Source: an uncultured Chthonomonadaceae bacterium (GTDB lineage Bacteria > Armatimonadota > Chthonomonadetes > Chthonomonadales > CAJBBX01). Taken from it: a stretch of 64,000 nt of DNA. A model generated the notes under the pieces. That model had not been told where the DNA came from and did not search any database. It saw nothing but the letters and a program-made list of their open reading frames with translations. Of the stretch, positions 19,677 to 34,524 are shown one piece after another; positions within the stretch are counted from its first letter, which is position 1, and every line of letters begins with the position of its first letter. Location of the stretch: positions 266 to 64,265 of the forward strand of contig CAYSDM010000024.1 of NCBI GenBank assembly GCA_964429855.1. The letters are read 5' to 3'. The translations under genes were made by a program, and so were the position numbers.

Positions 19677-19687
19677 GAACCGAATCT

Positions 19688-20230: not shown

Positions 20231-21075
20231 TGCCGGAAGCGCGTCCCATCGGGATATTCGATTCAGGGGTTGGCGGTCTGACGGTAGCAGGCGCGCTGCT
20301 GCGACGCCACTCCCGCCTTCCGATTCTCTATGTGGCGGATCAGGCGCATGTTCCCTATGGCGGTCGTCCGCTGGAAGAGATTCGCGGCTTTGCGACCGCC
20401 ATCAGCGCGTTTCTGGCGCGGCAAAACTGCCGCGCCATTCTTATGGCGTGCAACATCTCTTCGGCAACCGCGCTGCCCTCCGTCTCGCAGTCTCTCTCCC
20501 CGCTTCCAGTTCATGGGATGATCGCCCCGGCTGTCCGCCGCGCGCTGCAATCGCTGGCAGTGTCGCAATCCGAAAATGCGCCCCGGATCGGCGTTCTAGC
20601 GACCGCCGGAACGGTGCAGAGCGGAGCCTACGCCGTCGCGCTGCACTCCCTGAACAGGCGTTGTCAGGTGACGCAGGTTCCCTGTCCGAAGTTCGTTCCG
20701 CTGGTGGAAGCGGGAGAGATAGAGAGCGCGGCGGCGCGGGAAGCTGCCTGCGAATACCTGACTTTGCTGGCAGAGTCGCGCTGTCAAACCGTAATCCTCG
20801 GCTGTACACACTACCCTTACCTGCTTCCCACGCTCCAGAGAGTTGCAGCAGACCTCTTTCCGTCGCCGGTCACCTTCATTGACCCGGCGGAGGCGCTTGC
20901 CGACGCTCTGCCAATCCCTATGGATCCCGACGACATCTCATCTCCTCTGCGCCTGCTGCTGACGACCGGCGATCCGGAGCATTTCCGTCGTCAGATACCC
21001 CGTTTCCTTCCGGATGTCTCCTGCGAGGTGCGCGCCGCCCGCTGGCAAACGGACGGATCACTGCAAATTGCCTGA
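20230..21075 (+). CDS. murI: Glutamate racemase
   Basis: IGIFDSGVGGLTV. Catalytic Cys motifs ILMACNISSA and VILGCTHYP. ATG 20230 overlaps the GerMN stop (TGATG). Confidence 0.9.
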   Translation: MPEARPIGIFDSGVGGLTVAGALLRRHSRLPILYVADQAHVPYGGRPLEEIRGFATAISAFLARQNCRAILMACNISSATALPSVSQSLSPLPVHGMIAPAVRRALQSLAVSQSENAPRIGVLATAGTVQSGAYAVALHSLNRRCQVTQVPCPKFVPLVEAGEIESAAAREAACEYLTLLAESRCQTVILGCTHYPYLLPTLQRVAADLFPSPVTFIDPAEALADALPIPMDPDDISSPLRLLLTTGDPEHFRRQIPRFLPDVSCEVRAARWQTDGSLQIA

Positions 21076-21418: not shown

Positions 21419-22918
21419 GTGAGTCTCATGTTTACCTGCCGAGTCTGTGGACGTTCTATAGCGGAGCCAAACCCGGAGAATCGCTACTGCCCCTACTGTG
21501 GAACCGCGTTCGTCCTCTCCTGCACCAATGAGCTTTGTGGAAACCGCGCGGATGGCATCGTCGTCCGCCGCAGCGCGACCTGCGGACAGTGCGGCGCGCT
21601 CTACCGCTATGCTCCCTCCAGCGGACTGCCGGTCCTTGTGCGTCACCTTGGACCGTTTCTTCCCCCGGAAGAGTCTGCGTCCGTGGCGGCCCAAACCGAA
21701 TCGCCCGCATTTCTCCAGGACCTTCTGCCAGCAAGCGGCAATCCTTTCAGCGATTCCGCCCTGCTCTCGCAGCAGCCTCCCGACATCTCCATCCCCGAAA
21801 AAGAGGCGGATTTTGCGGTCAATACGCGCCTGCACGATGTCGAAGCGCGGCATGGACGCATCTATCTGGTTCCTCAAAACGGGATGGTACAGGCGCTGGA
21901 TTACGAGTCCCTGACCCGCCTCAATTTCTGGGCGGGAGAGGTGCTGCCAAACTGGGTTCCCACTAATCCGCAGCCGGTAAAACTTCAGGTCTCTGAAACC
22001 ATCGTCTATGTGTTGCATCGGGGAGCCATCAGCGGTTACGACGCGGGCAACGGCAAAGCGATCTTCTCCCTCACCGTCAACGACCTGCGCGATATCCACT
22101 GCCTGCTCGTGCGTAACCGGCTGCTGGTGGTCGGCACGGCGGGAGATCAGAAAGAGTATGCGCGGCTTTTCGACATCGAACATCTGTGCGATGCCCGCAC
22201 TCCCGCCAAACGCCCGCTATGGGAGGGCGAGGTGCGCGGAAGCATCGCGCCGGGACAGGCGCTTCCAGCGAAACGACTGGGCGTTTTTGGCGGCTACTTC
22301 TACCTGATCTCCCGCAGCAGCCAGCTTCTTGCCCTGCCGATGGAGGGCGGCGGCTTTGAAACGATGTATGACAACTGGGGATCGCGCTCCATCCACGCCT
22401 GGACGATGAATGAGAGAGCAGGCATACTGTTCCTCTCCCCGCCCACCCCGCAGGGCTACTACTCGCTGGTGACCTTCACGCCGGGAACCGGAAAACCGGT
22501 CTCCAACGAGACTCAGTTGATGACGGTTCGCCCGCGCGAAAAGCCGCGCAGCGTCCTGCTCTGGGATGAAGACATCCTGCTGCTGGATGAGGCGGGAAGC
22601 CTGCAGAGACTTCCCCTGATCAATCCCAACAACCCGACGGCGAACTGGGGCGCGCTGACCGGTCTGCAGAATATTGCCGACCTCTATCCGCCTCTCCTGA
22701 TTCCCTGGGGCAAGCAGATGCACTTCGTTATGCAGGTAAAGGAGCAGCTATCTCACTCTTTCCGCCATGTTCCGCTGAGCAAGGCGTCTACCGGCTTCAG
22801 CGCCAAACTGCCGGCATCTCCCTCGGCGCGAGACGATGTGCGAGCTATCTACTGTGGTCCGAATATCTACGTGTGTAATATGACCAATGGGAACATTAAA
22901 CGACTACCTCTTCGCTAG
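21419..22918 (+). CDS. Double zinc-ribbon + PQQ/BamB-like beta-propeller protein (cluster gene A)
   Basis: CRVCG..14..CPYCG and CTNELCG..13..CGQCG at the N-terminus. Repeated strand patterns follow: IYLVPQNGMVQALD, VYVLHRGAISGYDAGNGK, FYLISRSSQLLALP, ILLLDEAGSLQRLP, IYVCNMTNGNIKRLP. The start could instead be ATG 21428. Confidence 0.7.
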   Translation: MSLMFTCRVCGRSIAEPNPENRYCPYCGTAFVLSCTNELCGNRADGIVVRRSATCGQCGALYRYAPSSGLPVLVRHLGPFLPPEESASVAAQTESPAFLQDLLPASGNPFSDSALLSQQPPDISIPEKEADFAVNTRLHDVEARHGRIYLVPQNGMVQALDYESLTRLNFWAGEVLPNWVPTNPQPVKLQVSETIVYVLHRGAISGYDAGNGKAIFSLTVNDLRDIHCLLVRNRLLVVGTAGDQKEYARLFDIEHLCDARTPAKRPLWEGEVRGSIAPGQALPAKRLGVFGGYFYLISRSSQLLALPMEGGGFETMYDNWGSRSIHAWTMNERAGILFLSPPTPQGYYSLVTFTPGTGKPVSNETQLMTVRPREKPRSVLLWDEDILLLDEAGSLQRLPLINPNNPTANWGALTGLQNIADLYPPLLIPWGKQMHFVMQVKEQLSHSFRHVPLSKASTGFSAKLPASPSARDDVRAIYCGPNIYVCNMTNGNIKRLPLR

Positions 22919-24464
22919 GCGCGTAAGCCGCGCCCGATCCGGCTCTCCCGGACGTCGGACACTGCTGTTTCCGGCGCTGATGATGCTCCTTTCACTGGGA
23001 CTGCTCTCCCCGCAGTCTGCTCTTTCGCAGACGCCTTATCGGGGCGACTTTTTCGATGTCTATCAGGAGATCACGCGCCAGCTTGCCACTCAATACAGGA
23101 TGGTCTGCAACCGACGTCTGCATGTGGTGCTGGTGCTGGACGTGTCGCGCAGCACGCAGCAAAACGGGATGGAGATCCGGTTCGGTCAGATATGGTCGAA
23201 GATGTGGGATAACTTCCTGCGCGATGGCGATATGGTGACGCTGCTTCCCTTTGCGTCCAATTCGCTGCCGACATCCGGTCCCTTCAAGAAATCCGACAAG
23301 AGCGGTTTTGACTCGGCGGTGGCGAAAGCGAAGAAAGACACTGCGCAGGATACCGGAACCGCGCTCTACACCGTGCAGCAGTCTGCACTGACAGAGGCGA
23401 AGCGCATTGCGGAGTCGGATAAAGACCGCGCCGTACTGGTGCTGATGTTCACCGATCTCGACGGTCCCAATGTCACGGCGAACACTCTGACTCAGGAGAA
23501 CAATGTCCGGGACACGGTCATCCCTGAGTTGATGAAAGAGTTCACGGTAGGCAGCCCGAAGAAGGAGCCGGCGCAGCCCCGCCCCACCCCGACGCCCGGT
23601 CAGCCTGCGCCCGGTCAACAGGGAACGCCTCCGCCCCCGGGTCTGCTGTTGATGCACAAGAAGTTCTACTCCATCCAGTCGGATGATCGAAAAGGCGCGT
23701 CTCCGCTCTGGCTTCACTCCGCGATGGAGTCGAAATGGCAGCAGAAGAAGGAGCAGGCGGTTTCACGCAAGATCGAGTCGCGTCCTACGGAGCCTCCTCC
23801 TCCTCCGGAGCCTCAGCCTGACCGCCGCCCGATCATTCGTCTGCTGGGTCTTCTGATCGGCTTTCTTGGATTTGCGTTTCTGCCGTTCCTGCGCTTCCGC
23901 GTGAAGGTGGTTCCCTCCGGCATCTCTCCCATCGGCGACACCGATAAAAAGGTCTCCGCCTATGGCAAGGTCACCGTCGCCGCGTGCAACACCGCCGAAA
24001 CGCCGGAGCCGCGCGATCTGTGGCTGCCCCTCCCCTACAGTAGCGCGACCCCGGAGCCGCTTATCACCATTAAAGGGCTGAAACCCGGCTCCTGCGTGGT
24101 TGAGAAGATTGGCGGTCATATGCTGACACCAGACGGAGAGGCTGCCAGCACCGTAGATATTCCCTACGGCGAGTCGGAGACGATTCGTGTCGGCATACGT
24201 CCCAATGAACTCTATCCCCTGCAGATTGTTCCGGGTTCCTGGATGGAGGGGAAACTGATCCCGCTTCTGATGACGATGCTCTTCTTCCTGTTCGGCTTTA
24301 TCGTGCTGGTGATCGGTCTGGCGATGAAAGCGCCGGAGCAGCCGGTGGCTCCAGAGCCGGAGCCTGCGATCACCGATGTCTGTCGCGCCACCGGCGGCAG
24401 CCTGATGGAGAGCGGCAGGATCGTTGTCTCGGAACTCAAATCATCGTCTGAAAATCGGGCATAA
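22887..24464 (+). CDS. vWA (MIDAS) domain membrane protein (cluster gene B)
   Basis: Signal/anchor RRTLLFPALMMLLSLGLLSPQSALSQ. MIDAS DxSxS in VVLVLDVSRST, then GTALY and VLMFTDLDG. Pro-rich linkers, and TM segments IIRLLGLLIGFLGFAFLPFL and LIPLLMTMLFFLFGFIVLVIGLAM. The start is uncertain and overlaps gene A by 32 nt. Confidence 0.7.
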   Translation: MGTLNDYLFARRVSRARSGSPGRRTLLFPALMMLLSLGLLSPQSALSQTPYRGDFFDVYQEITRQLATQYRMVCNRRLHVVLVLDVSRSTQQNGMEIRFGQIWSKMWDNFLRDGDMVTLLPFASNSLPTSGPFKKSDKSGFDSAVAKAKKDTAQDTGTALYTVQQSALTEAKRIAESDKDRAVLVLMFTDLDGPNVTANTLTQENNVRDTVIPELMKEFTVGSPKKEPAQPRPTPTPGQPAPGQQGTPPPPGLLLMHKKFYSIQSDDRKGASPLWLHSAMESKWQQKKEQAVSRKIESRPTEPPPPPEPQPDRRPIIRLLGLLIGFLGFAFLPFLRFRVKVVPSGISPIGDTDKKVSAYGKVTVAACNTAETPEPRDLWLPLPYSSATPEPLITIKGLKPGSCVVEKIGGHMLTPDGEAASTVDIPYGESETIRVGIRPNELYPLQIVPGSWMEGKLIPLLMTMLFFLFGFIVLVIGLAMKAPEQPVAPEPEPAITDVCRATGGSLMESGRIVVSELKSSSENRA

Positions 24465-24506
24465 CGTCCTTCGTATAATCCCATTCCCCTGACGGGAGGA
24501 GTATCC

Positions 24507-24824
24507 ATGGCAGGACTTTTCGGAGATATGATGGCTCTGATCTGGATCGCGCTGATGGTGATCGGAATGATCTTTCTGGTCTACATGGTGCTTTTCTGGA
24601 TCTACTTCGGGATCTGTAAACTGAACGGACCGGTCGCAATCCGGATTGCGTGGACAGTCGGCGTTCTCAGCCTGCTGATCGTGCTCGCTTTCATCTTTCC
24701 CTTCCAGGCTCCCTATTTCAATCCGCTCAGCGGGGATATAGGTTCGCTGGTCAACATGGCGATTGTGGCGGTGATCTCGATGTTCTTTCTGATTATCGTC
24801 TGGGTGACCAAACCGAGTCTGTAA
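24507..24824 (+). CDS. Small polytopic (3-4 TM) membrane protein (cluster gene C)
   Basis: 105 aa, almost entirely hydrophobic helices. GGAGGAG SD 6 nt upstream. Confidence 0.6.
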   Translation: MAGLFGDMMALIWIALMVIGMIFLVYMVLFWIYFGICKLNGPVAIRIAWTVGVLSLLIVLAFIFPFQAPYFNPLSGDIGSLVNMAIVAVISMFFLIIVWVTKPSL

Positions 24825-24927
24825 GGTGTTCCTTCGTTCGCTTCCGGCGAAATAGCATGTATCGAATCAGAGGCTGCGCTCCGCGGCGCGCGGAAGCCCC
24901 TCTCACGCATTGTCAAGGAGACTGCAC

Positions 24928-27900
24928 ATGCTGCGTCCTGCACTGGTAATTGCCCTCGGCGGCACCGGCACGAACATCGTGCTCCGTCTGCGCGAACGCT
25001 TCCATATGATGTATGGAACTCCCGATCCGGAGGGCGTGCGCTATATTTTCGTAGATACCGACACGAAAAATAATCTGAGCCGGAGAGAGCTTCAGGGCTA
25101 TGCGGGTCGTACTATCGGGATCGCGGTCGGTCCCAACACCCTGAACGATCTGCAGATCCCCAACTCTCCTACGTCGCAGCGGCTTCGACTGGACGACTGG
25201 TTTGACCCCGACCTTCGCGGGCGGTTGACCAATCAGAGCTTTCAGGCGGGCGTTGGCGGGGTGCGTATGTACGGGCGGCTGGTGCTGCTGGCGGCGGATC
25301 AACTGCGGCAGCTTACGGAACTGATCAGCAATGACATTCAAGCGCTTCGCCGTAACGCCGCCGGAAACGATCCCGGCTCCCTGCACATCTTCGTCGCATC
25401 CTCCTCTGGAGGCGGAACCGGCAGCGGCTCCTTCATTGACATGGGCTATCTGACCCGGCTGATACTGCAGGACTTAGCGGTTCCGGGAGGCGTCTGCGAA
25501 CGTGAGGGGCTGCTGGCAATCGCCGTGCCGACCCTCGTTCCCGCGCCGCAGCAGGCGCGCAACTCCGCCGCCATGCTCTCCGAAATGGACTACTTCTGCG
25601 AGCCGGGAAATATCTTCCAGGCGGTCTATATTGATCGCCCCCTGCCGGAGAGCATTGGACGGGAAGCCCCCTACGACTATATTCTGCTCTCCTCCCCGAC
25701 CCAGGGAGATCAGGTGCTCAGCGAAAATCCCGTTCAGGCGATGGGGCTTCTGGAGAGCAAAATGGCGGACTATATCTTCATCCGCCTGACCGAACCCGGA
25801 CGCCTCGGCGGTCTGCTGCGCGATGTCCGCACCAACTGGCAGACCACTCCCCGCGACAACCGGGGCTATCCCAACCGCTTTATGACCTTCGGCGTCAGCA
25901 TCCGTCAGTTCCCCGTCGGTCTGGTGGAGATGCTCGGTTACCGTTACGCCATCCGCAACTTCACCTGGGGATGGCTGAAGCGACCCCGCGAGGGCGACTC
26001 CATTCTGGACGACTCCGAACTGGCAACCAGACCGGATATACAGCAGGCGTACACCAACGATCTGGCGGCTCTGCGCAAGCTAATCGGTCTGCCATCGGTG
26101 CATGAGCAGACCGGCAAGCAGCCCCGCGATGCCGTGAACGACGCGCTCTACGCCGAACTGATCCAGACCCAGCAGGAGGCGCTGGAGGCCTCTCTTCGCA
26201 GCCGCGCCAACGACGGCAAGGTGGACGATCTGTTCCAGTACTCCGGTGCGGATCAGCCCGTAGCTCCCGGCTCTCCCGGTTATGTTGCTGGAACGATCAG
26301 CCGTAACGCCACGCGCCTGATGAATCCCAATGAGCCTGCCAGTCTGTTCAATCGCATCCGCGATTACCTGTATGCGGCAGCATTTGATCGAACGCGAGGA
26401 CCGCGCTATGCCCAGCGACTGGCGCGCGACCTGGTGGAGGAGATGCGCCGCGAAGAAGAGTTCATGGATGAAGTGCTGCGCGCCGCCGGAATGGTGGGAA
26501 CCGGCGGAACCGGCGGAGGCGGTCTCAACCGCGCACAGAAGGTGCGCCGCGATTTTCTGCTGCTATTCTGGGCAGACACGGCGGCAAAGCGGGAGCGCGG
26601 CGGCAGTGGCGGCGGAGCCAGCGGCCCCTATGCCAACCGACGGTTTGAGACCAGCCTGTTGGAATCCAAGAAGTTTATCTATGGCACGCTGCGGGATAAG
26701 CTTCTGGTCGGCGGTGAAAACCTGGAAGGACGCTTCAAGCGACTCTCCGCCTATATCGAAGCCTGGGCGAATCAGGCGGAGATGTCGGCGGCGGACAATG
26801 AGAAGCTGGTCGAGAACCTGCCCTACGGCACGATCTATCCGAAAGACCGCATTGAAGAGAAGTGGAAGAACCTGACCCCGACCGTCTCGCAGGATAGTCT
26901 GGAGCCGCTTCAGCGTCAAACCCGCAGCCAGCAGTTCGGCGTGGATATGCCCAAAGACCCACGTGGCGCGCCGGACTTTGCCCCGTTTGAGAACATCGGC
27001 GAACAGATTCGCGCCGCGCTGCGATCAGAGGCGGGAGAGTCCGCCAGCTCGATCTACGGAGAATCGGTGCTGCGCCTGATCGCCGAGATCAACGAAGGAA
27101 ACCTGGAGCCGACATGCCAGCAGATGGCGTCGGAGAGCCGCCCGCTGCTGAATCTGCGGCTGGACGCGCCGGGATACGCCGAACTGCTCAACAGCCGCAC
27201 CTCCTTCGGTCAGCCGACCTACCTCTGGTTCGCGATGGCAAGCCCGGAAGCGGATTTCAACTCCTATCAGGCGTTCTGGACAAGCACCCTGCGCGCCGCG
27301 CAGGGGATCACCCCGGTGGTGCGCGCCAATCCCGACGCCCCCATCCGCGACGACCTGAAGATCAAAAATGGCAGCATTGCAGCCCTGATATTCGTCCGAG
27401 CCGCCTTCCCCTCGCGCATTATCAACCAGTATGAGCAGGATGATCGCTGGGGACTGCTCTTCCCGCCCAATGCGACGACGATCACCACGCCCTTCACGCA
27501 GACCGGCATCCTCCTGCCGCCCCCGCTTGCCGTGTTGGACGAGGCGCGCGTACTGCTGATGCTCGGCGAGACTCTGCGAGTCATGCCCAACGACCCGAAC
27601 GAGTTTGCGACCGAACCCAAAATCACCTGGGGCGGCGCGGAGCACACGTTCGAGTATCAGCTCGGTCCGTATGAAGTGGAGCGAATGCGCTACCCGAAGA
27701 ACGACTTTGAGCGCGCCGCCTATCTTCTGGCTGTCAACGAGAAGGCTCTCAGCGCGCTGCGAAAAGCTCTCAACCTGCGCGCCGGAGATATGAACCAGCG
27801 AGGCATTATCGCGGAGAAGATCGTTCAGGAGATACACAAACTCAACGACCGTATCCTTAACGCCCCCGGCGGCGCGATGCAGGGCTACTACGACAGCCTC

Positions 27901-28122
27901 GATCTTGGCGGCATCAAGTATCCGGAATCGCGCAAGATGCTGTTCGAAGGCGCAAAAAAACTCGGCATTGACCTGTTCATCATAGACCCCAGTCTGCACC
28001 CCTGGGCGAAACCAAGCGATGCCGACAGTCTCTGGCGATGCAACAAGTGCAACTATGTCCTGGGAGCCGAGGTGCCGGATATGCAGGGCGAGTGTCCTAA
28101 CTGCGGTCATCCTAACCGTTAG
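24928..28122 (+). CDS. Large tubulin/FtsZ-superfamily GTPase-like protein with C-terminal zinc ribbon (cluster gene D)
   Basis: T1-like VIALGGTGTNIV, FVDTD, and the tubulin signature in VASSSGGGTGSGSFIDMGYL. C-terminus CNKCN..16..CPNCG. AAGGAG SD at 24915-24920 supports ATG 24928 over the track's TTG 24910. Confidence 0.85.
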   Translation: MLRPALVIALGGTGTNIVLRLRERFHMMYGTPDPEGVRYIFVDTDTKNNLSRRELQGYAGRTIGIAVGPNTLNDLQIPNSPTSQRLRLDDWFDPDLRGRLTNQSFQAGVGGVRMYGRLVLLAADQLRQLTELISNDIQALRRNAAGNDPGSLHIFVASSSGGGTGSGSFIDMGYLTRLILQDLAVPGGVCEREGLLAIAVPTLVPAPQQARNSAAMLSEMDYFCEPGNIFQAVYIDRPLPESIGREAPYDYILLSSPTQGDQVLSENPVQAMGLLESKMADYIFIRLTEPGRLGGLLRDVRTNWQTTPRDNRGYPNRFMTFGVSIRQFPVGLVEMLGYRYAIRNFTWGWLKRPREGDSILDDSELATRPDIQQAYTNDLAALRKLIGLPSVHEQTGKQPRDAVNDALYAELIQTQQEALEASLRSRANDGKVDDLFQYSGADQPVAPGSPGYVAGTISRNATRLMNPNEPASLFNRIRDYLYAAAFDRTRGPRYAQRLARDLVEEMRREEEFMDEVLRAAGMVGTGGTGGGGLNRAQKVRRDFLLLFWADTAAKRERGGSGGGASGPYANRRFETSLLESKKFIYGTLRDKLLVGGENLEGRFKRLSAYIEAWANQAEMSAADNEKLVENLPYGTIYPKDRIEEKWKNLTPTVSQDSLEPLQRQTRSQQFGVDMPKDPRGAPDFAPFENIGEQIRAALRSEAGESASSIYGESVLRLIAEINEGNLEPTCQQMASESRPLLNLRLDAPGYAELLNSRTSFGQPTYLWFAMASPEADFNSYQAFWTSTLRAAQGITPVVRANPDAPIRDDLKIKNGSIAALIFVRAAFPSRIINQYEQDDRWGLLFPPNATTITTPFTQTGILLPPPLAVLDEARVLLMLGETLRVMPNDPNEFATEPKITWGGAEHTFEYQLGPYEVERMRYPKNDFERAAYLLAVNEKALSALRKALNLRAGDMNQRGIIAEKIVQEIHKLNDRILNAPGGAMQGYYDSLDLGGIKYPESRKMLFEGAKKLGIDLFIIDPSLHPWAKPSDADSLWRCNKCNYVLGAEVPDMQGECPNCGHPNR

Positions 28123-28143
28123 GCAGAGCGAATCCGCGCGTTC

Positions 28144-28175
28144 CCGCAGATCGCGTCTGGCGGCTCGATCTGCGG
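28144..28175 (+). other. Intra-operon stem-loop between the GTPase and protease genes
   Basis: Perfect 10-bp stem ccgcagatcg / cgatctgcgg with a 12-nt loop and no U-tract. Confidence 0.4.
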
Positions 28176-28201
28176 AGAGACGCTAGAGCGAGGAGAAAAC
28201 G

Positions 28202-29107
28202 GTGCGCTACTACAAACAGGACTGGGTGGCTATGGGAGTGAAACCGGGAGGCGGCTCGACCGGCAGCATTCCGCTGGCAGCGCTCTTTTCCGTGATTCTG
28301 CTGGCGGGGCTGGGGGTTCTGGCGTTTTTCCTGGGCAACTTCAGCGGATTTGGCGGCGGCAATCCCGGCGATGCGACTGTCTTCATAGACTGCCAGTGGC
28401 AGATTAATCTGGCGGATGGACGGCAGGTACAGACTGGAGGAAGCGGTTCCGGCACGATCATCCATCCCAACGGCAAAGTCATCACCAATCACCATGTCGT
28501 CTTCATGAACAGCCTGAAGACACAGGAAGGCGAGATACCGCTCGATCAGGAGGTCGAGGCGTCGAAGATCACCGTCTACCTTCGCAGCGGAACCAACGAG
28601 GTGAAGAAGATGGAGGCGCAGGTCTTAGATACCGACCGCACCGGAAAGACCTGGACGGGCGCATCGCTGGACGATATGTGGCACGACTGGGCAGTTCTTC
28701 AGATCAAGAATCCCCCGCCCGATCTGCCCTATGTACGCATCGGGGACAGTCGCAAGGTGGGGCAGAACAACAAGATCACTGTCTTCGGCTTTCCGCTGGG
28801 ACAGAAATACCAGGTCGAAGAGGGCAAAGGTCCAGCGATGACGGTGGTTCCCGGCGTGGTGAAGCGGATCGTTCCGCCCAACCCCAACACCTTCTTCTAT
28901 TTCGTTCACAGCGCGAATGTGCAGCCCGGCAACAGCGGCGGTCCGCTCATCAACGACGCCTCGAAGGAGCAGGTCGGAATCAATACACGGATTTCCGTCA
29001 TTCGCAGCATGGAGGGAGCCTCCAGCGATGAACACTATACGATCCCAACCCACAAACTGGAAGAGGTCTGGAAGAAGCACGCGAAGTCACAGGCGTTCGG
29101 CAAGTAG
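28202..29107 (+). CDS. Membrane-anchored trypsin-like (S1/HtrA-type catalytic domain) serine protease (cluster gene E)
   Basis: N-terminus MRYYKQDW + TM. Complete triad context: His in GKVITNHHVV, Asp in HDWAVLQI, Ser in GNSGGPLIN. GTG start with AGGAG SD. Confidence 0.85.
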   Translation: MRYYKQDWVAMGVKPGGGSTGSIPLAALFSVILLAGLGVLAFFLGNFSGFGGGNPGDATVFIDCQWQINLADGRQVQTGGSGSGTIIHPNGKVITNHHVVFMNSLKTQEGEIPLDQEVEASKITVYLRSGTNEVKKMEAQVLDTDRTGKTWTGASLDDMWHDWAVLQIKNPPPDLPYVRIGDSRKVGQNNKITVFGFPLGQKYQVEEGKGPAMTVVPGVVKRIVPPNPNTFFYFVHSANVQPGNSGGPLINDASKEQVGINTRISVIRSMEGASSDEHYTIPTHKLEEVWKKHAKSQAFGK

Positions 29108-29139
29108 TCCTCTGATCGCAACAGGGCAGGAGCAAGCGA

Positions 29140-29985
29140 ATGCGATACTATAAACAGGACTGGGCCGTGTCCGGTCCGGTCAAAGAGACCAGCGGCGGAA
29201 GCATTCCGCTCGCCATCCTATTCTCTTTGATCATCTTTATTGCGCTGGGAGTGCTGGCTTTCCTCTTCGGCGGCGCGCTTCCGTCTATCGGGCGCGAAGA
29301 CCTGAAGAATGTGGTGCTCATCATCAGCACGCAGTATCCGGGAGAACAGACGCGATTTTTCACCTCCGGCGTGCTGATTAAGTCGGATGGGACTCTCATC
29401 ACGACCTACAAGAACCTGAACCGGGCAGATCAGGGCGGTAATCTGGTCAAACCAGAGAAGATCGTCGTGATCCTTCCGCCGGAGAAGCAGGGAGACCAGC
29501 CGCGCGAATTTGAAGCGCAGGCGCTGGATGCCAATAAGTCGCCGGAAGAGGCGCTCTCCAGCGATCTGGAGAAGATGTGGCACGACTGGGAACTGGTGAA
29601 GATCAAGAACCCGCCGAAAGGACTGCGCGCCCTGCCCATCGGCGACAGCGCCAGCATCAAGCCGCAGGATAAGGTCACGGTCGCCGGTCTCTCGCAGGCG
29701 CAGCAGCCCATGCGATACGAAGGCATCAATATCGCCGACGGGCAGATCACCAAAGTGGTGCCGCCGAACAATCCCCGCAACTCCATCTACTTTGCGCACG
29801 ATGTCAAGGTGGATCGCGGCAGTTCGGGCAGCGCGGTGGTGGACCAGCGCACCGGACAGATGATCGGTCTGCATATCAAAACCGATACCGACGAGCGAAC
29901 CGGACGTTCGGAGTACTTCGCCGTCCCGTCGCGCAAGCTCGCGGACGCCTGGCGCGCCGCGGGGCTGGATAACTATCCGAAGTAG
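29140..29985 (+). CDS. Paralogous membrane-anchored trypsin-like protein lacking the catalytic His (probable pseudo-protease; cluster gene F)
   Basis: Same MRYYKQDW + TM N-terminus. The aligned His position reads GTLITTYKNL, Asp is kept (HDWELVKI), and the Ser context is GSSGSAVV. Confidence 0.75.
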   Translation: MRYYKQDWAVSGPVKETSGGSIPLAILFSLIIFIALGVLAFLFGGALPSIGREDLKNVVLIISTQYPGEQTRFFTSGVLIKSDGTLITTYKNLNRADQGGNLVKPEKIVVILPPEKQGDQPREFEAQALDANKSPEEALSSDLEKMWHDWELVKIKNPPKGLRALPIGDSASIKPQDKVTVAGLSQAQQPMRYEGINIADGQITKVVPPNNPRNSIYFAHDVKVDRGSSGSAVVDQRTGQMIGLHIKTDTDERTGRSEYFAVPSRKLADAWRAAGLDNYPK

Positions 29986-29999
29986 CAGGAGACGCACCT

Positions 30000-32474
30000 A
30001 TGAACTGCATGGTCTGTCAGCGACAATTCGACCCCAACGATCCCGATATCTGTTACTGTCCGCGCTGCGGATGGTCGCTGGGACAGTTGAGCGTTGCGCT
30101 GCATCCCGAAACCCTGATTCTTGCCGGTCCGCGTCCGGTTCCACTGACCCTGATCTGCCGTAATACCGGATTCGGGAAGCTGAAGTGCGAACTGGATCGC
30201 GACAGCCTGCCGCCGGGCGTTACGCTCGCGCAGGGCAGCGAGTCCTCGCTGCAACTCACCTCGCAGCCTCAGGAGATTCGCCTGCTGGTAGACCCGCGAA
30301 ATCTGGAGAAAAATCTGTCGGTGCTGCCGGTGGTGCTCCACTCGTATGATCGGCGCGGACAGCATCGGATGGATTTTCGTCCGGCGTCTCTGGAAGCGGG
30401 GCGCGTCGCGCAGCCCTGCGCCCTTCCTATTCAGAGAATGCGCTTCGGTCCGGTGCAGATTTTTCAGGAGATGCTGCTGTTTCGCAGCCTTCAGCGCAAA
30501 CAGAAACTTCAGGTGCAGAATCTGGGCGATGTGGAGGTGGTGCTGGCATTGACGGCGCCCTCCGGCTTTCAGCTTCGTTATGGCAGCCAGCCTCCCGCCG
30601 GATCGTTCACCATGCGTTTGAGCGGAACGCCGGTTCCAGAAGAGATCACGGTCGAAGCGACCACAACCGGCGCGCCCGTTCAGCGCGGAGGCGCGCCGCT
30701 GATTCTGCGCGTGGAGGTGGCGGATCTGCCGGATGACAGCCGGGATATTCAACTGCTCTGGATTCCGGAAGAGACGGTCGAGACCCAGCGTAAGCGATGG
30801 ATCATCGGCATTGACTTTGGCACGGCCAAGACCGCCATCTTCTACAGCGACTGCAACCTGCCCCAGCCGCAGCCCCGCCCCGCCAGATGGCTGATGCCGA
30901 CCGGTGATGTTCGCATCAAAGTTCCGTCGGTCATCATGTATCCGTACACCAGCCCGCTTCCGCCGCGCTGCGGTTGGGATGTGCCGGAGACCGCCGAGGT
31001 GGACGGGCGCGATGTGGTGGTGCGCTCCATTAAGAAGCGGCTGACGGACGAGACGGCGATTGAATACGAGTTGTCGGACGGAACCGTTCTGACGGTGGAT
31101 CAGGTGGTCGAACACTATCTGCGGTTTATTGTGGGCAAGTTCCGGCAGCAGGATGCTTTTCGGGGCGAAGGCAACCCGTTTGACAACGCGCAGGTAGTGT
31201 TGAGCCTGCCGGTGCGCGATGATGAGGAGCAGTACGAGGAGCAGAAGCGGCGCACGATCAATGCGGCAGTGCGTGTCGGGTTAAATGAAGACCAGATTCT
31301 CTGCTATACGGAGCCGGAGTGCGCGGCGGTAGACTTTCTGCGTCGGCGGCAGGAGCTAGGCATGACGGTGCAGCAGGGCGACCTGCTGTGCGTCTTCGAC
31401 TGCGGGGCGGGAACGACGGATATCTGCCTGCTTCAGCTTCACTACAGCGGCGGCGAACTCAGCTTCACCCGACGCGCGCTGGCGGGATTCCCCTTCGGCG
31501 GAGACGTGATTGACGAACTGCTGACCCAGTATGTGCTGGATGAGTGGCTGGAGAAGGGCAAGTTCCACGAGTATAACGCCGACTTCTCAATGTTCCATCT
31601 CAAGGGCGAAGCGCAGGCGCGCACACGGCGGTTCCTGCTCTCTGCGCTGCGCCGGGTCAAGGAGCGTCTCGCGTTTGTAGACCCGGATCAGCTTCAGCCC
31701 AACAACGAGCAGAGCGTCTCCTTCAGCTACAACAACGATCCGGCCGACGCGATCCCGATCACCTGGTCTCTGATCGAGACGCTGTTCCGTCCCTATGTGC
31801 AGAAGATTCTCAGCGAGGGCTTTGATCCCAATGATATGATTCCGGACTGGACGAAAGAGCAGCCGCAGGGGCGTCCGGTGGGAGTGAAGCTGCCTTCGCT
31901 CAACTCCGTGCTGTGGCGCGAGGGGCTGGATGCCGTGGACATCCGCTGGCTCTGTCTGACGGGAGGAAGCAGTTTTATCCCGTTCCTGGTGAAGATGCTG
32001 CAGAATATGTTCCCGCACGCCGCGCTGGTTCCTCCGGTCACCATGATCCCGGATATGCTGCGTGAGCAGGATACGCCGATGACCCTCAATGTGGCGCAGG
32101 GCGCGGCGGCGCGCCCCCTCTACCGGGTCGAGGGACAGCTTCCGCTGGACTACCTGCTTCAGTATAGCTCCAGCAGCGGAATGACCGAACCGACCGTTGT
32201 GCTGACCAAAGGCGGCGCGCCGGGCAAGATCGGACCGCAGCAGGCGTACCGGCTGATGGCGGGTGATACCGGCACGCTCCGGCTGATCGCGCAGGTTGGC
32301 GGAGAGCGTGGAACCGTCTACAAGAAAATCCTGAAAAACCCGTATGAGGACAAGCATATCAGCGTGCTGGCGCAGGTCGAATACGGACGTGATATGAAGG
32401 TCTATCTGACCATCTCCTTCGGGGTAGACAACGACGTGATACCTATTCTGGAGAAGATCGCCGTCGTCGAATAG
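30000..32474 (+). CDS. Hsp70/actin-fold ATPase with N-terminal zinc ribbon and two beta-sandwich-like domains (cluster gene G)
   Basis: CMVCQ..11..CYCPRCG. Phosphate-1 IIGIDFGTAKTAIFYS, phosphate-2 VFDCGAGTTDICLLQL, adenosine motif LCLTGGSSFIPFLVKML. Short beta-rich C-terminus with no helical lid. Confidence 0.85.
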   Translation: MNCMVCQRQFDPNDPDICYCPRCGWSLGQLSVALHPETLILAGPRPVPLTLICRNTGFGKLKCELDRDSLPPGVTLAQGSESSLQLTSQPQEIRLLVDPRNLEKNLSVLPVVLHSYDRRGQHRMDFRPASLEAGRVAQPCALPIQRMRFGPVQIFQEMLLFRSLQRKQKLQVQNLGDVEVVLALTAPSGFQLRYGSQPPAGSFTMRLSGTPVPEEITVEATTTGAPVQRGGAPLILRVEVADLPDDSRDIQLLWIPEETVETQRKRWIIGIDFGTAKTAIFYSDCNLPQPQPRPARWLMPTGDVRIKVPSVIMYPYTSPLPPRCGWDVPETAEVDGRDVVVRSIKKRLTDETAIEYELSDGTVLTVDQVVEHYLRFIVGKFRQQDAFRGEGNPFDNAQVVLSLPVRDDEEQYEEQKRRTINAAVRVGLNEDQILCYTEPECAAVDFLRRRQELGMTVQQGDLLCVFDCGAGTTDICLLQLHYSGGELSFTRRALAGFPFGGDVIDELLTQYVLDEWLEKGKFHEYNADFSMFHLKGEAQARTRRFLLSALRRVKERLAFVDPDQLQPNNEQSVSFSYNNDPADAIPITWSLIETLFRPYVQKILSEGFDPNDMIPDWTKEQPQGRPVGVKLPSLNSVLWREGLDAVDIRWLCLTGGSSFIPFLVKMLQNMFPHAALVPPVTMIPDMLREQDTPMTLNVAQGAAARPLYRVEGQLPLDYLLQYSSSSGMTEPTVVLTKGGAPGKIGPQQAYRLMAGDTGTLRLIAQVGGERGTVYKKILKNPYEDKHISVLAQVEYGRDMKVYLTISFGVDNDVIPILEKIAVVE

Positions 32475-32508
32475 TCTACTGTGCGAACCATGACGCATGA
32501 GGGATCCC

Positions 32509-34524
32509 ATGAAGATGACCCCCTATTCCATGCCATGTTTAAGCGTCAGGCGACTGCGCCTGCTGCCGATTCTTGCGCTGCTGCTGCTGTCGCTGCCGTT
32601 AGACGCGCAGTCAGTCTATACCCCCTGGCAGAAGGGGAACGGAAAGATACAACCGACCGGTGACAGGCAGGCGATAATACAGCCGCCGAAGGCCGCCGGG
32701 GAGTATGCCTTCATTCAGTTGAACGAACTCAAGGGAAAGAGCTGGAGCGTTCAGGCTAAAGTCATTCTGGAGGGTGTCGTTCCGACGAATCTGCCGAAAA
32801 ATGCCATCACTCCGATCTTTCAGCTAAACAATAAGATGGCTGAACCGGGTAAGTGGAACTACCAGATGGCGCTGAGTCTGGACTGGGGGCAGGATGGCAA
32901 ATCCACGCCGCGCATCGCGCTCCCTCAGGGTCTGAGACGCGACTTTCAGCCGATCCAACTGCCTCAGGTCTTCCATGTTCGCGTCCAGCGCAAAGAAGAT
33001 CAGGTAACCATCGCGCTGCTGAAAGAGAGCAGCGAGCCGCCGCTGAGCGAAGTCACTCTTCCCGCCACCGGAGATACCCTCTACATGACATGGGGTTCGC
33101 TGGGGACCGATACGAAACACACCACCTTTGAATGGCGGATCAACGATCTGGAGATCAAGCAGGGAGAAGCCGCCAGCCCCGGCGTGACTCCCCAACCCGT
33201 ACAGAATCAAGGGGGGGCGGCGGAGGGGCAGCCACAGGCGGAGGATCCCCGCGTGAGCAAGGCGACACAGCAGGCGGGAGGCGCGCTCGTGCTGGGCGCG
33301 CTTGCGCTGCTGGCGTCGCTGCTGGCAATTGTGCTGACCGTCGTGACCTTTGTGCTGAACCGCGGAAAAGGAGCCAAAGATTCCGGGGAACTGCCCGGCA
33401 AAATCACCGCCATCGAAACGCGGGTGAATACGCTCAACAGTCAGATGGCGACCAAACAGGATATCCAGAACAGCCGGGAGCAGATCACGAAAGACCTGAC
33501 AGAGAGGGTGCAGCAGGGTTTCGTAAAACTGGATGATCGGATGAAGGCGGCGGAGGCGGCGGTTCAGTCCGCCAGCTCCTCCGCGCCGCCGTCCTCCAGT
33601 GATGGACTGGACTATCGTGTGCAAAGCTGTGAGGCGCAACTGCAGCAGATCGCCGGGCAGATTCAGAATCAGAACAGCGACATCAGCAACCTTCGCGCCA
33701 CGCTGAATACGCTGATGGATAAGATCACTCTCCTGAATCGCGCGCTCCAGCAGATGGAGCAGGCGCAGCGCAACGCCCAGCAGGTTCAGACGACGGCTGC
33801 CGTCTCCCCCTCCACGCCAACTGCGAACGCCGGGACCGTGGAACCCGGTCTGGAAGATCGTTATCATACGACCCATCCGGCGACAACGCCAGCGGTCACC
33901 ATCATCCAGAGCGGGCCGAGCGGGACGCCGCCCGCCGATAACGGCGGAACGGTTGTCTCCTCCACGCCGCCTGCATCCTCTAACGCTCCTCTCTGGGAGA
34001 CACAGTGGAGGCAGCTCCGGCAGAGCCTCAACGCCCATCGCGCTTCGGTAACCGTCGAGAGCTTCAGCAAAGACCTGGATATGCTGGAGACCTACTTCAA
34101 GACGCTGATCGAAAAGTGGGAGACGCTCAAGCCGCCCGCCGAAGACGCGCATATGTGGGATGAGTGGCTGTTCAGTAATCTGGACTACCATCTCTATCAG
34201 GCGCCGCGCCTGACCTCGCTCGGAGAGGTTTCGCCGGAGATTCGAGGCGCGCTGGAGCGGATGCGCTCCGTGATCGAACAGGCGCAGGAGGCGCGCAAAG
34301 CGCAGTTGCGCGAGTGGGAACTGGAACGAATCGAGGGCGTTCCCGGCAAAGACCGCGCCACCGCCTATGTCATGGAAGCCGACCCGGAGAACCCGCCGGA
34401 GCCGACCACCGATCCGCGAAAGGACTACACCTTCTCGCATATCGTTCCCGGCAGAGGCGGATACCGGTTCCGGGGGCGCGTGCTGCGGAAAACGCACGCC
34501 GTTTTCTATCAGTTCAAGGGATAG
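32509..34524 (+). CDS. Single-pass receptor-like protein: signal peptide, beta-rich ectodomain, TM, long coiled coil, C-terminal domain (cluster gene H)
   Basis: Signal peptide [52 protein letters not shown]-rich heptad region ([24 protein letters not shown] ... [29 protein letters not shown]). GAGGGA SD supports ATG 32509. Confidence 0.7.

What the first reader, a model, noticed from the sequence alone, without database searches (positions are those of the whole stretch)
30000..32474. Non-canonical Hsp70: zinc ribbon + two beta-sandwich-like domains fused upstream of the ATPase, no helical lid, no adjacent DnaJ/GrpE
The actin-fold motifs are clear: IIGIDFGTAKT, DCGAGTTD, LTGGSSFIP. The ATPase, however, starts only around aa 268. 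The N-terminus is CxxC-x11-CxCxxC followed by two segments of about 110 aa with alternating beta-strand patterns. The C-terminus is a short beta-rich region. No J-protein or GrpE gene is in the cluster. Its downstream neighbour H has a long cytoplasmic coiled coil plus a small C-terminal domain. Inference, speculative: H could serve as the dedicated partner or exchange factor.
Basis: partly seen in the sequence, partly recalled or inferred. Interest (0 to 1): 0.65.

Follow-up and report, generated by a model that had tools for sequence, protein, structure and literature searches.

The report
Lidless Hsp70 with membrane-tethered GrpE-like partner
This gene encodes an unusual Hsp70-type chaperone ATPase that always sits next to a membrane-anchored protein resembling its nucleotide-exchange factor GrpE, inside a conserved operon built around a bacterial tubulin relative; the system's function is unknown.

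Summary
ORF 30000-32474 (+) encodes an 824-aa protein built as follows: Zn ribbon, two ASH/PapD-like Ig-type beta-sandwiches, an Hsp70-class nucleotide-binding domain (aa 266-705, catalytic residues conserved), and a 112-aa eight-stranded beta domain. It has no helical lid. The family is small, about 40 clusters at 50% identity among 1.84 billion representatives, and named members are Armatimonadota.

In all 9 loci examined, the gene lies in one operon. Shared components are a Tubulin_2 (FtsZl1) GTPase, a vWA membrane protein and a membrane-anchored trypsin-like protein. One or two genes carrying the C-terminal domain of neighbour H follow immediately downstream.

That domain is a probable divergent GrpE. 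Profile-profile comparison gave probability 90.5%, E 1.3e-6, over 100 colinear columns, and permutation and shuffle controls all scored lower. Pfam's GrpE model does not detect it, and its structure model was too poor to test.

No J domain and no P-loop GTPase occur in the cluster.

Best reading: a J-independent Hsp70/GrpE-like pair working at the membrane within an uncharacterised FtsZl1-vWA envelope-spanning system. Five of the nine loci also carry a ZorA/ZorB-like stator pair. This is a new variant of a known kind.

The parts
30000..32474 (+). G: non-canonical Hsp70-class protein, 824 aa, no hydrophobic segment (cytoplasmic)
   Evidence: ORF and translation. 32 homologs at 90% clustering and about 40 full-architecture clusters at 50% identity. 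AF2 mean pLDDT 88.9. No TM segment by hydropathy.
30000..30083 (+). N-terminal Zn ribbon (aa 1-28): C3, C6 ... C20, C23, then G-W
   Evidence: Cysteines and the G-W pair are invariant or nearly invariant in alignments A1 and A4. Only weak Pfam Zn-ribbon or RING-type hits.
30084..30764 (+). Two ASH/PapD-like (MSP-fold) Ig-type beta-sandwich domains (aa about 29-118 and 135-255), each with a conserved N-x-G-x-G motif
   Evidence: Strands in the AF2 model. N174, G176 and G59 are invariant. The A4 profile hits repeats of giant proteins at E 1e-63 to 1e-10. Pfam calls those repeats Cep192_D4, HYDIN_VesB_CFA65-like_Ig, BACON_2, DUF1573, ASH or PapD-like. PDB profile hit 2qsv, E 0.0035.
30795..32114 (+). 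Hsp70-class nucleotide-binding domain (aa 266-705)
   Evidence: Pfam HSP70 25.6 bits against a gathering threshold of 20.6. NCBIfam HscA/DnaK hits are weak. hhalign against DnaK: probability 99.7%, E 2.4e-25. Foldseek top 50 are all Hsp70-type. Invariant residues: D272-x-G-T275, K345, E438-P439, D467-x-G-x-G-T-T-D474, G655-G656.
32136..32471 (+). C-terminal eight-stranded beta domain (aa 713-824) in the position of the Hsp70 substrate-binding beta domain; no helical lid follows
   Evidence: Eight strands at aa 717-823. The best Foldseek hits are NBD+SBD DnaK structures, mostly ATP-type or related docked states, aligned over about 600 columns at E about 1e-23, against 6.7e-19 for an NBD-only chain. 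No sequence similarity to the DnaK SBD was detectable for the domain alone.
32497..34524 (+). H: signal peptide, ectodomain (aa about 41-230), TM (aa 269-287), cytoplasmic coiled coil (aa about 296-435), low-complexity linker, conserved C-terminal domain
   Evidence: Translation. Coiled-coil-type Pfam and NCBIfam hits at aa 296-433. Hydropathy. The ectodomain has no counterpart in the other 8 loci.
34153..34521 (+). GrpE-like C-terminal domain of H (aa about 553-675)
   Evidence: hhalign of the H-C family (15 sequences) against a GrpE alignment (11 sequences): probability 90.5%, E 1.3e-6, 100 columns, aligned to E. coli GrpE 91-191. The 10-sequence version scored 39.8, against a maximum of 18.8 in 200 column permutations and 30.6 in 200 block permutations. 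A GrpE HMM ranks H-type ORFs first and second, and 5 of the top 7, among 692 ORFs. The H-C HMM scores 2 of 11 real GrpE sequences above all 3300 shuffles. The domain is present directly downstream of G in 9 of 9 loci.
24910..28122 (+). D: tubulin/FtsZ-like GTPase (Pfam Tubulin_2, the FtsZl1 type), 1070 aa, with a C-terminal Zn ribbon
   Evidence: Tubulin_2 E 2e-36; rubredoxin-like Zn ribbon at aa 1042-1069. GGGTGSG signature in the sequence. Present in 9 of 9 loci.
22887..24464 (+). B: membrane protein with an N-terminal extracytoplasmic vWA domain (DxSxS MIDAS motif intact) and two TM segments
   Evidence: Pfam VWA E 3.2e-5. 'DVSRS' in the sequence. TM segments. Present in 9 of 9 loci.
21419..22918 (+). 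A: cytoplasmic protein with two N-terminal Zn ribbons and a beta-rich body; no family match
   Evidence: Sequence. No Pfam or NCBIfam hit. Homologs in 7 of 9 loci. No match in L004 or L076: the upstream gene is cut by the locus end in both, and the 287 aa held in L004 did not match A.
24507..24824 (+). C: small membrane protein, 105 aa, three hydrophobic segments
   Evidence: Homologs in 5 of 9 loci.
28202..29107 (+). E: N-terminal cytoplasmic tail (MRYYKQDW), one TM, extracytoplasmic trypsin-like protease with His, Asp and Ser present
   Evidence: Trypsin_2 E 2.4e-21. Alignment A5. TM.
29140..29985 (+). F: paralog of E with the same tail and TM, but lacking the catalytic His
   Evidence: Trypsin_2 E 2.7e-16. 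Alignment A5: 'TTYKNL' stands in place of 'TNHHVV'.

Best explanation
G is a catalytically competent, specialised Hsp70-class ATPase that works with its downstream neighbour H as a dedicated chaperone and exchange-factor pair at the cytoplasmic face of the membrane. The pair belongs to a conserved envelope-spanning system built around a tubulin-like (FtsZl1/Tubulin_2) GTPase.

Shown:
- G's architecture: Zn ribbon, two ASH/PapD-like Ig domains, Hsp70 NBD, lidless beta domain.
- Conservation of the Hsp70 catalytic residues.
- Strict linkage of G to the tubulin-like, vWA and trypsin-like genes and to the H-type gene.
- Remote similarity between H's C-terminal domain and GrpE.

Inferred:
- H, anchored by its TM helix and probably dimerised through its long coiled coil as GrpE is, releases ADP from G. 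G's ATP cycle would then turn over only at the membrane complex.
- G's N-terminal Zn ribbon and Ig module targets it to partners. A and the tubulin-like D carry Zn ribbons of the same CxxC...CPxCG type.
- The lidless beta domain clamps a specific short peptide rather than unfolded proteins in general. The invariant cytoplasmic [RQDE][YF]Y-x3-[WN] tail of the membrane-anchored trypsin-like proteins is the most obvious candidate.
- The ATP cycle serves to assemble, disassemble or license the tubulin-like polymer and transmembrane complex.
- There is no J protein, so ATPase stimulation would come from the client or from G's own N-terminal module.

The biological role of the whole system is most likely envelope-linked sensing and conflict (defence), or membrane remodelling.
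For: Hsp70 identity:
- Pfam HSP70 scores above its gathering threshold.
- hhalign against DnaK: probability 99.7%, E 2.4e-25, G 266-813 aligned to DnaK 2-489.
- All 50 best Foldseek PDB hits are Hsp70-type. The best are NBD+SBD DnaK structures, mostly ATP-type or related docked states.
- Equivalents of DnaK K70, E171-P172 and D194-x-G-G-G-T199-x-D201, the N-terminal D-x-G-T and the G-G adenosine motif are all invariant in 28 homologs.

Linkage:
- In 9 of 9 loci the Tubulin_2, vWA-like and trypsin-like genes are present.
- One or two H-C-domain genes lie directly after G. In L001 and L004 they overlap the G stop codon.

GrpE-likeness of H.

Topology: A, D and G have no TM segment. B, C, E, F and H are membrane proteins.

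Conserved cytoplasmic tail of the proteases.

No J domain and no P-loop protein. The position aligned with DnaK R167 is variable in the family; the link between R167 and J-domain coupling is from my own knowledge.

Published context:
- FtsZl1-vWA operons were predicted to be membrane-associated machines (PMC2875224).
- Tubulin+vWA and Hsp70+GrpE themes occur in GTPase-centred conflict systems (PMC7159879).
Against: - GrpE similarity is remote. Pfam GrpE does not hit any of 10 H-type sequences, and a profile search of PDB sequences finds no GrpE.
- The AF2 model of H aa 500-675 is poor (pLDDT 59.8, beta part below 50), and Foldseek finds nothing with it.
- The C-terminal beta domain of G has no detectable sequence similarity to the DnaK SBD when tested alone. 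Its SBD-like nature rests on the full-length model only.
- No client, no interaction and no activity is shown. The roles of the N-terminal module and of the protease tails are guesses.
- PADLOC gives no meaningful hit for the core genes.
- The window's flanks are housekeeping genes: amidase, GerM, glutamate racemase, ABC-F and malic enzyme. A defence role is therefore not established.
Confidence: 0.6

Rival explanations
1. H is not an exchange factor. It would be a scaffold, anchor or client of G. Its conserved C-terminal domain would bind G (for example in the beta-domain cleft or on the Ig modules) to hold it at the membrane, and the GrpE resemblance would be convergent or too degraded to matter.
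For: Pfam GrpE does not hit H-type proteins. There is no PDB sequence hit, the AF2 model is poor and Foldseek finds nothing. Strict adjacency fits any obligate partner, not only an exchange factor.
Against: The match to GrpE is colinear over 100 columns and includes the family-invariant LDxAL, G-I-E-R-I-E and G-G-Y..G..L..[TA].A.. motifs. It exceeds all 400 permutations. Independent HMM tests run in both directions point the same way.
Confidence: 0.25
2. G acts like FtsA does for FtsZ. It would be an actin-fold protein whose main job is to tether or organise the tubulin-like polymer D at the membrane complex, possibly by polymerising itself, rather than to run a chaperone cycle on a peptide client.
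For: G is an actin-fold ATPase encoded in the same operon as an FtsZ/tubulin homolog in 9 of 9 loci. The C-terminal beta domain shows no sequence similarity to the DnaK SBD. The N-terminal Ig domains are of the ASH type; in eukaryotes ASH domains occur in microtubule- and centrosome-associated proteins (my own knowledge).
Against: The fold and sequence are specifically Hsp70-class, not FtsA, MreB or ParM. MreB_Mbl scores below its threshold and all 50 top Foldseek hits are Hsp70-type. A GrpE-like partner makes sense only for an Hsp70-type nucleotide cycle. G has no membrane-targeting helix.
Confidence: 0.12
3. G is merely a diverged housekeeping-type Hsp70 paralog (HscA- or HscC-like) that happens to lie next to an unrelated tubulin/vWA cluster.
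For: Public pipelines name it 'molecular chaperone DnaK (HSP70)'. NCBIfam's best weak hit is HscA.
Against: The gene order is conserved in 9 loci whose flanks all differ. The architecture is unique and restricted to about 40 clusters. NCBIfam scores are about 30 bits against cutoffs of 620-1000.
Confidence: 0.03

Closest known systems
[quoted passage not shown]
   Same: The NBD has all catalytic motifs. A beta domain follows the NBD in the same place as the SBD-beta. The adjacent gene has a long coiled coil plus a C-terminal domain that aligns with GrpE 91-191.
   Different: G carries a 265-aa N-terminal extension (Zn ribbon plus two Ig domains) and has no helical lid. No J protein is present, and the position aligned with DnaK R167 is not conserved. 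The beta domain has no sequence similarity to the SBD. The GrpE-like protein is membrane-anchored, carries an ectodomain, and escapes the Pfam GrpE model.
FtsZl1-vWA operons (Makarova and Koonin 2010, PMC2875224), predicted membrane-remodelling systems
   Same: A Tubulin_2/FtsZl1 gene sits next to a vWA membrane protein with intact MIDAS, among many membrane proteins. OmpA-family proteins occur in 5 of the 9 related loci.
   Different: The 'distinct GTPase' of those operons is absent. The paper does not mention an Hsp70-like, GrpE-like or trypsin-like component.
GAP1-N2 GTPase-centric conflict systems with tubulin+vWA or Hsp70+GrpE themes (Kaur, Burroughs, Iyer, Aravind 2020, PMC7159879)
   Same: The same kinds of parts appear: tubulin homolog, vWA proteins, an Hsp70 (some lacking the peptide-binding domain) and GrpE.
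   Different: Those systems centre on a GAP1-N2 GTPase and FNIII-repeat proteins. The tubulin and Hsp70 themes are described there as non-overlapping, and as occurring in firmicutes and actinobacteria. Here there is no GTPase, both themes sit in one operon, and named members are Armatimonadota.
Zorya anti-phage system (ZorA/ZorB stator-like motor)
   Same: Five of the nine related loci carry a MotA/ExbB-like protein with a long coiled-coil tail plus a MotB/OmpA-like protein. The latter matches PADLOC ZorB1 over its full length (E 2.7e-22).
   Different: The pair is absent from this window. No ZorC, ZorD or ZorE match was found. ZorA matches are weak and lie mostly in coiled coil. ZorB matches may reflect only generic MotB homology.
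FtsA-FtsZ (actin-fold partner of a tubulin-fold polymer)
   Same: An actin-fold ATPase and a tubulin-fold GTPase are encoded together.
   Different: G is Hsp70-class by fold and motifs, not FtsA-class.

Membership tests
Hsp70 (Pfam PF00012) | Actin-fold nucleotide-binding domain recognisable by the family model and by fold | tested here: met
   Pfam HSP70 25.6 bits against a gathering threshold of 20.6. hhalign against DnaK: probability 99.7%. Foldseek top 50 are all Hsp70-type.
Hsp70 (Pfam PF00012) | Catalytic and phosphate-binding residues (equivalents of DnaK D8-x-G-T11, K70, E171, D194-G-G-G-T199-x-D201, G341-G342) | tested here: met
   D272-F-G-T275, K345, E438-P439, D467-x-G-x-G-T-T-D474 and G655-G656 are invariant in 28 homologs. 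Their mapping to DnaK comes from the hhalign alignment.
Hsp70 (Pfam PF00012) | Substrate-binding beta-sandwich after an interdomain linker | tested here: inconclusive
   An eight-strand domain lies at aa 717-823. NBD+SBD DnaK structures, mostly ATP-type or related docked states, are the best Foldseek hits over about 600 columns. The domain alone shows no sequence signal: hhalign score 11.4, equal to the permuted mean. The domain could not be modelled or searched on its own.
Hsp70 (Pfam PF00012) | C-terminal helical lid (SBD-alpha) | tested here: not met
   The protein ends with beta strands at aa 812-823. No helix follows aa 702.
Hsp70 (Pfam PF00012) | J-domain co-chaperone partner | tested here: not met
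   No DnaJ Pfam hit in the window cluster or in the called genes of 8 related loci. No conserved HPD motif and no phmmer J-domain match. A J protein encoded elsewhere in the genome cannot be excluded.
GrpE (Pfam PF01025), for the C-terminal domain of H | Match to the curated family model | tested here: not met
   No GrpE hit for any of 10 H-type sequences, even at E up to 10. There is also no GrpE among PDB profile hits.
GrpE (Pfam PF01025), for the C-terminal domain of H | Colinear profile-profile similarity over the helical bundle and beta domain | tested here: met
   Probability 90.5%, E 1.3e-6, 100 columns, aligned to E. coli GrpE 91-191. The score exceeds 400 of 400 permutations. Supported by the GrpE HMM ranking and the H-C HMM against shuffles.
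GrpE (Pfam PF01025), for the C-terminal domain of H | GrpE fold (long helix, helical bundle, small beta domain) | tested here: inconclusive
   The AF2 model shows helices followed by three strands, but pLDDT is 59.8 overall and below 50 in the beta part. Foldseek gave no hit.
GrpE (Pfam PF01025), for the C-terminal domain of H | Nucleotide-exchange activity on its Hsp70 | not testable with these tools
   Needs biochemistry.
FtsZl1-vWA system (PMC2875224) | FtsZl1 (Tubulin_2) gene with an adjacent vWA gene carrying a MIDAS motif | tested here: met
   Tubulin_2 E 2e-36 and VWA E 3.2e-5. DxSxS motif present. Tubulin_2 is equated with the Makarova-Koonin FtsZ-like proteins in PMC9871819.
FtsZl1-vWA system (PMC2875224) | Associated diverged P-loop GTPase | tested here: not met
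   No Walker A motif in any window cluster protein. Only chance-like matches appear in related loci.
FtsZl1-vWA system (PMC2875224) | OmpA-family protein | tested here: not met
   None in the window cluster. Present in 5 of 9 related loci.
GAP1-N2 GTPase-centric conflict system (PMC7159879) | GAP1-N2 GTPase and FNIII-repeat component | tested here: not met
   No P-loop protein. No fn3 or GTPase Pfam hit in the cluster proteins.
Zorya (ZorAB plus effectors) | ZorA and ZorB genes in the locus | tested here: not met
   PADLOC gave no ZorA or ZorB hit for the window proteins. Such a pair exists only in related loci L002, L004, L064, L065 and L076.

The most novel reading that the evidence does not exclude
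The G-H pair is a J-independent Hsp70/GrpE machine dedicated to a bacterial tubulin homolog. G's ASH-type Ig domains belong to a domain class that in eukaryotes marks microtubule- and centrosome-associated proteins. They would dock G on the FtsZl1 polymer, and the membrane-tethered GrpE-like H would gate G's cycle. Signals from outside would arrive through the vWA protein, the protease and, in sister loci, a Zorya-like ion-driven stator. They would be converted into chaperone-driven assembly or disassembly of a tubulin-like filament. This would be a chaperone-regulated prokaryotic tubulin cytoskeleton used for envelope defence or remodelling.
Probability: 0.15. Interest if true: 0.85.

Novelty: new variant of a known kind. 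Interest (0 to 1): 0.62.

Why it matters
Hsp70 systems are usually described as a trio of Hsp70, J protein and exchange factor acting on many clients. Here an Hsp70 has lost its lid and gained a targeting module. It has no J protein encoded nearby. It is hard-wired to a membrane-anchored, very diverged GrpE-like protein inside an operon for a tubulin homolog of unknown function.

If the pairing is functional, three things follow:
- It gives a compact, genetically defined example of a single-purpose Hsp70 cycle.
- It gives the first concrete handle on what FtsZl1-vWA systems do. They were predicted in 2010 and I found no experimental study of them.
- It offers a link between these systems and stator-based (Zorya-like) envelope sensing.

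The work also shows that 'no GrpE nearby' calls based on standard models can miss highly diverged exchange factors.

Tried and rejected
It returned only distant NBD relatives (L005-L063, NBD at the N-terminus, 470-1660 aa) with no tubulin-like neighbours by tblastn. It was of no use for the ortholog context, so the look-up of encoding contigs was used instead.
- The search for homologous proteins with the H C-terminal fragment found nothing. With alignment A2 it found only 3 proteins. The MSA for structure prediction was therefore only 4 sequences.
The H model that could be run was poor and gave no Foldseek hit.
- BLASTP of H against E. coli GrpE was not significant (E 0.19).
- The Pfam and PDB-sequence profile searches for H-C showed no GrpE.
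- hhalign of G's C-terminal domain alone against DnaK gave no signal. The apparent alignment through the SBD came from greedy extension and is not counted as evidence.
- The promoter and terminator scan was no better than shuffles.
- J domain, HPD motif and Walker A searches were negative.
- PADLOC on the window proteins gave only weak or coiled-coil hits.
- P0021 could not be located on a contig.
- Literature searches found no description of this architecture or operon.


Full report
**1. Observation**

ORF 30000-32474 on the + strand starts with ATG and encodes 824 aa. The N-terminus reads C3-x2-C6-x11-C18-x-C20-x2-C23.

A search of 5.8 billion clustered proteins found 32 homologs down to 25% identity, nearly all full-length. 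In an alignment of 28 of them, the invariant columns include C20, C23, G24 and W25 of the Zn ribbon. They also include D272-F-G-T275, K345, E438-P439, D467-x-G-x-G-T-T-D474 and G655-G656.

Public pipelines already label some members 'molecular chaperone DnaK (HSP70)' or 'hypothetical protein'.

**2. What G is**

Sequence and fold evidence for an Hsp70-class NBD:
- Pfam HSP70 matches above its gathering score (25.6 against 20.6 bits), while MreB_Mbl is below its threshold.
- NCBIfam gives only weak HscA and DnaK hits, far below their cutoffs. G is therefore not an ortholog of any named Hsp70.
- An AlphaFold2 model built on the family alignment is confident (mean pLDDT 88.9, pTM 0.73).
- All 50 best Foldseek PDB matches are Hsp70, DnaK, BiP or Hsp110.
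- The best matches (E about 1e-23, about 600 aligned columns) are NBD+SBD DnaK structures, mostly ATP-type or related docked states. An NBD-only chain scores 6.7e-19.
- hhalign of the family against three DnaK sequences gives probability 99.7%, E 2.4e-25, with G residue 266 aligned to DnaK residue 2.
- The invariant residues map onto DnaK's catalytic Lys70, Glu171-Pro172, the DxGGGTxD phosphate-2 motif and the GG adenosine motif.

The ATPase should therefore be active.

After the NBD comes a 112-aa domain of eight strands (aa 717-823), and then the protein ends. There is no helical lid. The size, position and docked placement of this domain fit an SBD-beta. Tested alone, however, it shows no sequence similarity to the DnaK SBD: hhalign score 11.4, the same as permuted controls. 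I therefore call it 'SBD-like by position and model' only.

**3. The N-terminal 265 residues**

The model shows a Zn ribbon followed by two beta-sandwiches at aa 30-115 and 136-254.

A profile of this region was searched against 1.84 billion representatives. It found about 40 proteins of 780-925 aa with the whole module at their N-terminus; these are the orthologs. It then found hundreds of giant proteins in which the single sandwich recurs 5-25 times.

Pfam calls those repeats Cep192_D4, HYDIN_VesB_CFA65-like_Ig, BACON_2, DUF1573, ASH, PapD-like or MSP. The best PDB sequence hit is 2qsv (E 0.0035). The two domains are therefore ASH/PapD-like Ig domains. G itself matches these Pfam models only at E around 0.1.

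**4. Context**

The window cluster runs on the + strand from 21419 to 34524:
- A: two Zn ribbons plus a beta-rich body.
- B: secreted vWA domain with DxSxS, plus two TM segments.
- C: small protein with three TM segments.
- D: Tubulin_2, E 2e-36, GGGTGSG signature, C-terminal Zn ribbon.
- E and F: short cytoplasmic tail, one TM, extracytoplasmic trypsin-like domain.
- G: the Hsp70-class protein.
- H: the downstream neighbour.

The flanks are unrelated housekeeping genes.

I fetched eight further loci that encode diverse G homologs and compared all genes by phmmer and jackhmmer. Results:
- Tubulin-like D: 9 of 9 loci.
- vWA-like B: 9 of 9.
- Trypsin-like: 9 of 9.
- A: 7 of 9. No match was found in L004 or L076, where the upstream gene is cut by the locus end; the 287 aa held in L004 did not match A.
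- C: 5 of 9.
- The C-terminal domain of H occurs in one or two genes directly downstream of G in 9 of 9 loci. In L001 and L004 the gene overlaps the G stop codon.

Flanking genes differ in every locus. H's ectodomain is unique to this window.

**5. Is H an exchange factor?**

The H-type C-terminal consensus is LDxALY ... RGIERIEG..G ... PG.GGYR..G.VL.PT.AVFY. It recalled GrpE's lDnleRAl ... Gve.i...G..FDP ... GY.l..RvlRpA.V.V.

Tests, weakest first:
- BLASTP of H against E. coli GrpE was not significant (E 0.19).
- Pfam GrpE gave no hit for any of 10 members.
- A profile search of PDB sequences found no GrpE.
- The AF2 model from a 4-sequence MSA had pLDDT 59.8, and Foldseek found nothing with it.
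- Profile-profile comparison against a GrpE alignment built from 11 diverse sequences gave probability 63.6%, E 6.7e-5 with 10 H-type sequences.
- With 15 H-type sequences it gave probability 90.5%, E 1.3e-6, over 100 colinear columns, H aa about 553-670 against E. coli GrpE 91-191.
- The real score (39.8) exceeded all 200 column permutations (maximum 18.8) and all 200 block permutations (maximum 30.6).
- A GrpE HMM searched with filters off against all 692 + strand ORFs of the nine loci ranked H-type genes first and second, and 5 of the top 7.
- The H-C HMM scored two real GrpE sequences (14.0 and 18.7 bits) above all 3300 shuffles (maximum 10.8), and six of eleven within the top 1%.

I conclude that H carries a probable, highly diverged GrpE-like domain (about 70% confidence). 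It is preceded by a long coiled coil, as in GrpE, and is tethered to the membrane. Exchange activity is inferred, not shown.

**6. What is missing**

No J domain or HPD motif and no P-loop GTPase occur in any cluster protein. The position aligned with DnaK R167 is variable in the family; its role in J-domain coupling is from my own knowledge. This fits J-independent operation. A J protein encoded elsewhere in the genome cannot be excluded.

**7. Mechanism proposed**

*Shown:*
- G is a cytoplasmic Hsp70-class ATPase with intact catalytic residues, a lidless beta domain and a Zn-ribbon/Ig targeting module.
- G is obligately linked to a membrane-anchored GrpE-like protein and to a tubulin-like/vWA/protease set.

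*Inferred:*
- H recycles G at the membrane.
- The N-terminal module docks G on partners. A, D and G all carry CxxC...CPxCG ribbons.
- The beta domain clamps a specific short peptide.
- The cycle assembles, disassembles or licenses the tubulin-like/transmembrane complex.

One concrete candidate client is the cytoplasmic tail of the trypsin-like proteins. All ten share [RQDE][YF]Y-x3-[WN] at the extreme N-terminus (MRYYKQDW in both E and F), with Tyr4 invariant.

**8. System-level role**

The cluster fits the FtsZl1-vWA operons of Makarova and Koonin, which they predicted to be membrane-remodelling machines. It lacks their GTPase, however, and that paper mentions no Hsp70, GrpE or protease component.

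Kaur et al. 2020 describe tubulin+vWA and Hsp70+GrpE as separate themes of GAP1-N2 GTPase conflict systems in firmicutes and actinobacteria. Here both themes are combined without the GTPase, in Armatimonadota.

Five of the nine loci add two further proteins:
- A MotA/ExbB-like protein with a long coiled-coil tail.
- A MotB/OmpA-like protein matching PADLOC ZorB1 at E 2.7e-22.

Together they form a Zorya-like stator pair.

Several features lean toward a conflict or defence role:
- The Zorya-like stator pair in five loci.
- The patchy distribution of the family.
- The variable flanks, which include transposases and toxin-antitoxin genes.
- Catalytically dead protease paralogs.

Against this, the core genes hit no known defence model and the window's flanks are housekeeping genes. 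The role stays open.

**9. Verdict**

This is a new variant of known kinds (atypical Hsp70, GrpE, FtsZl1-vWA system), not a categorically new thing. It is experimentally tractable and untouched in the literature I could search.

Noticed in passing
window 28202-28225 and 29140-29163; also L001 9120, L002 6734, L003 9198, L004 5589, L064 5857, L065 6524, L076 5241, L077 9046: All ten membrane-anchored trypsin-like proteins share a short N-terminal cytoplasmic motif, [RQDE][YF]Y-x3-[WN]. It reads MRYYKQDW in both window paralogs, and Tyr4 is invariant. It looks like a docking peptide for a cytoplasmic partner.
   Followed up: partly
window 29140-29985; L002 6734-7534; L076 5241-6092: Window paralog F lacks the catalytic His. 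The L002 and L076 homologs lack both His and Ser. Protease activity is therefore not universally kept in the system.
   Followed up: partly
L064 6771-9853; L065 7437-9964; L004 6410-9126; L002 7531-10004; L076 6111-8875: Five related loci carry, between the trypsin-like and Hsp70-like genes, a MotA/ExbB-like protein with a long coiled-coil tail and a MotB/OmpA-like protein (PADLOC ZorB1 E 2.7e-22). This is a Zorya-like stator pair. A gene of about 300 aa with no family match usually follows. The pair is absent from the window.
   Followed up: partly
window 21419-21620 (A), 28033-28119 (D), 30000-30083 (G): Three cytoplasmic proteins of the cluster carry Zn ribbons of the same CxxC-x13/14-CPxCG type. 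A has two of them.
   Followed up: no
window 10959-16066: A PP2C phosphatase, a Ser/Thr protein kinase and a HEAT-repeat protein lie about 5-10 kb upstream on the same strand. Makarova and Koonin list protein kinases as frequent components of FtsZl1 operons. These genes are separated from the cluster by cell-wall genes, so a link is uncertain.
   Followed up: no
window 17763-21075: Directly upstream of the cluster are peptidoglycan-related genes: an AMIN-domain N-acetylmuramoyl-L-alanine amidase, a GerM-like protein and glutamate racemase. This flank is not shared by the other eight loci.
   Followed up: no
window 32617-33186 (H aa about 41-230): H's extracytoplasmic domain has no homolog in the other eight loci and no family match. 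H-type proteins elsewhere have different N-termini. The sensing or anchoring part seems freely exchangeable.
   Followed up: partly
window 34314-34524: The mechanically listed ORF for the downstream ABC-F ATPase (GTG at 34314) overlaps the last 211 nt of H. The ABC_tran domain begins at aa 101 of that ORF, so its true start is probably further downstream.
   Followed up: no
L001 5001-5840: In locus L001 a DDE transposase sits between the vWA-like gene and the tubulin-like gene. A Y1 transposase and another DDE transposase flank the cluster.
   Followed up: no
L005-L063: Many Terriglobia/Bryobacterales, Myxococcota, Vibrio and other genomes encode distant (about 25% identity) Hsp70-like proteins of 470-1660 aa, most with the NBD at the N-terminus. 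No tubulin-like neighbour was found by tblastn. These are other non-canonical Hsp70 families that I did not characterise.
   Followed up: no
window 44267-47434: A 1055-aa protein carries PSCyt1, PSCyt2 (DUF1549), Laminin_G_3 and PSD1 (DUF1553) domains.
   Followed up: no
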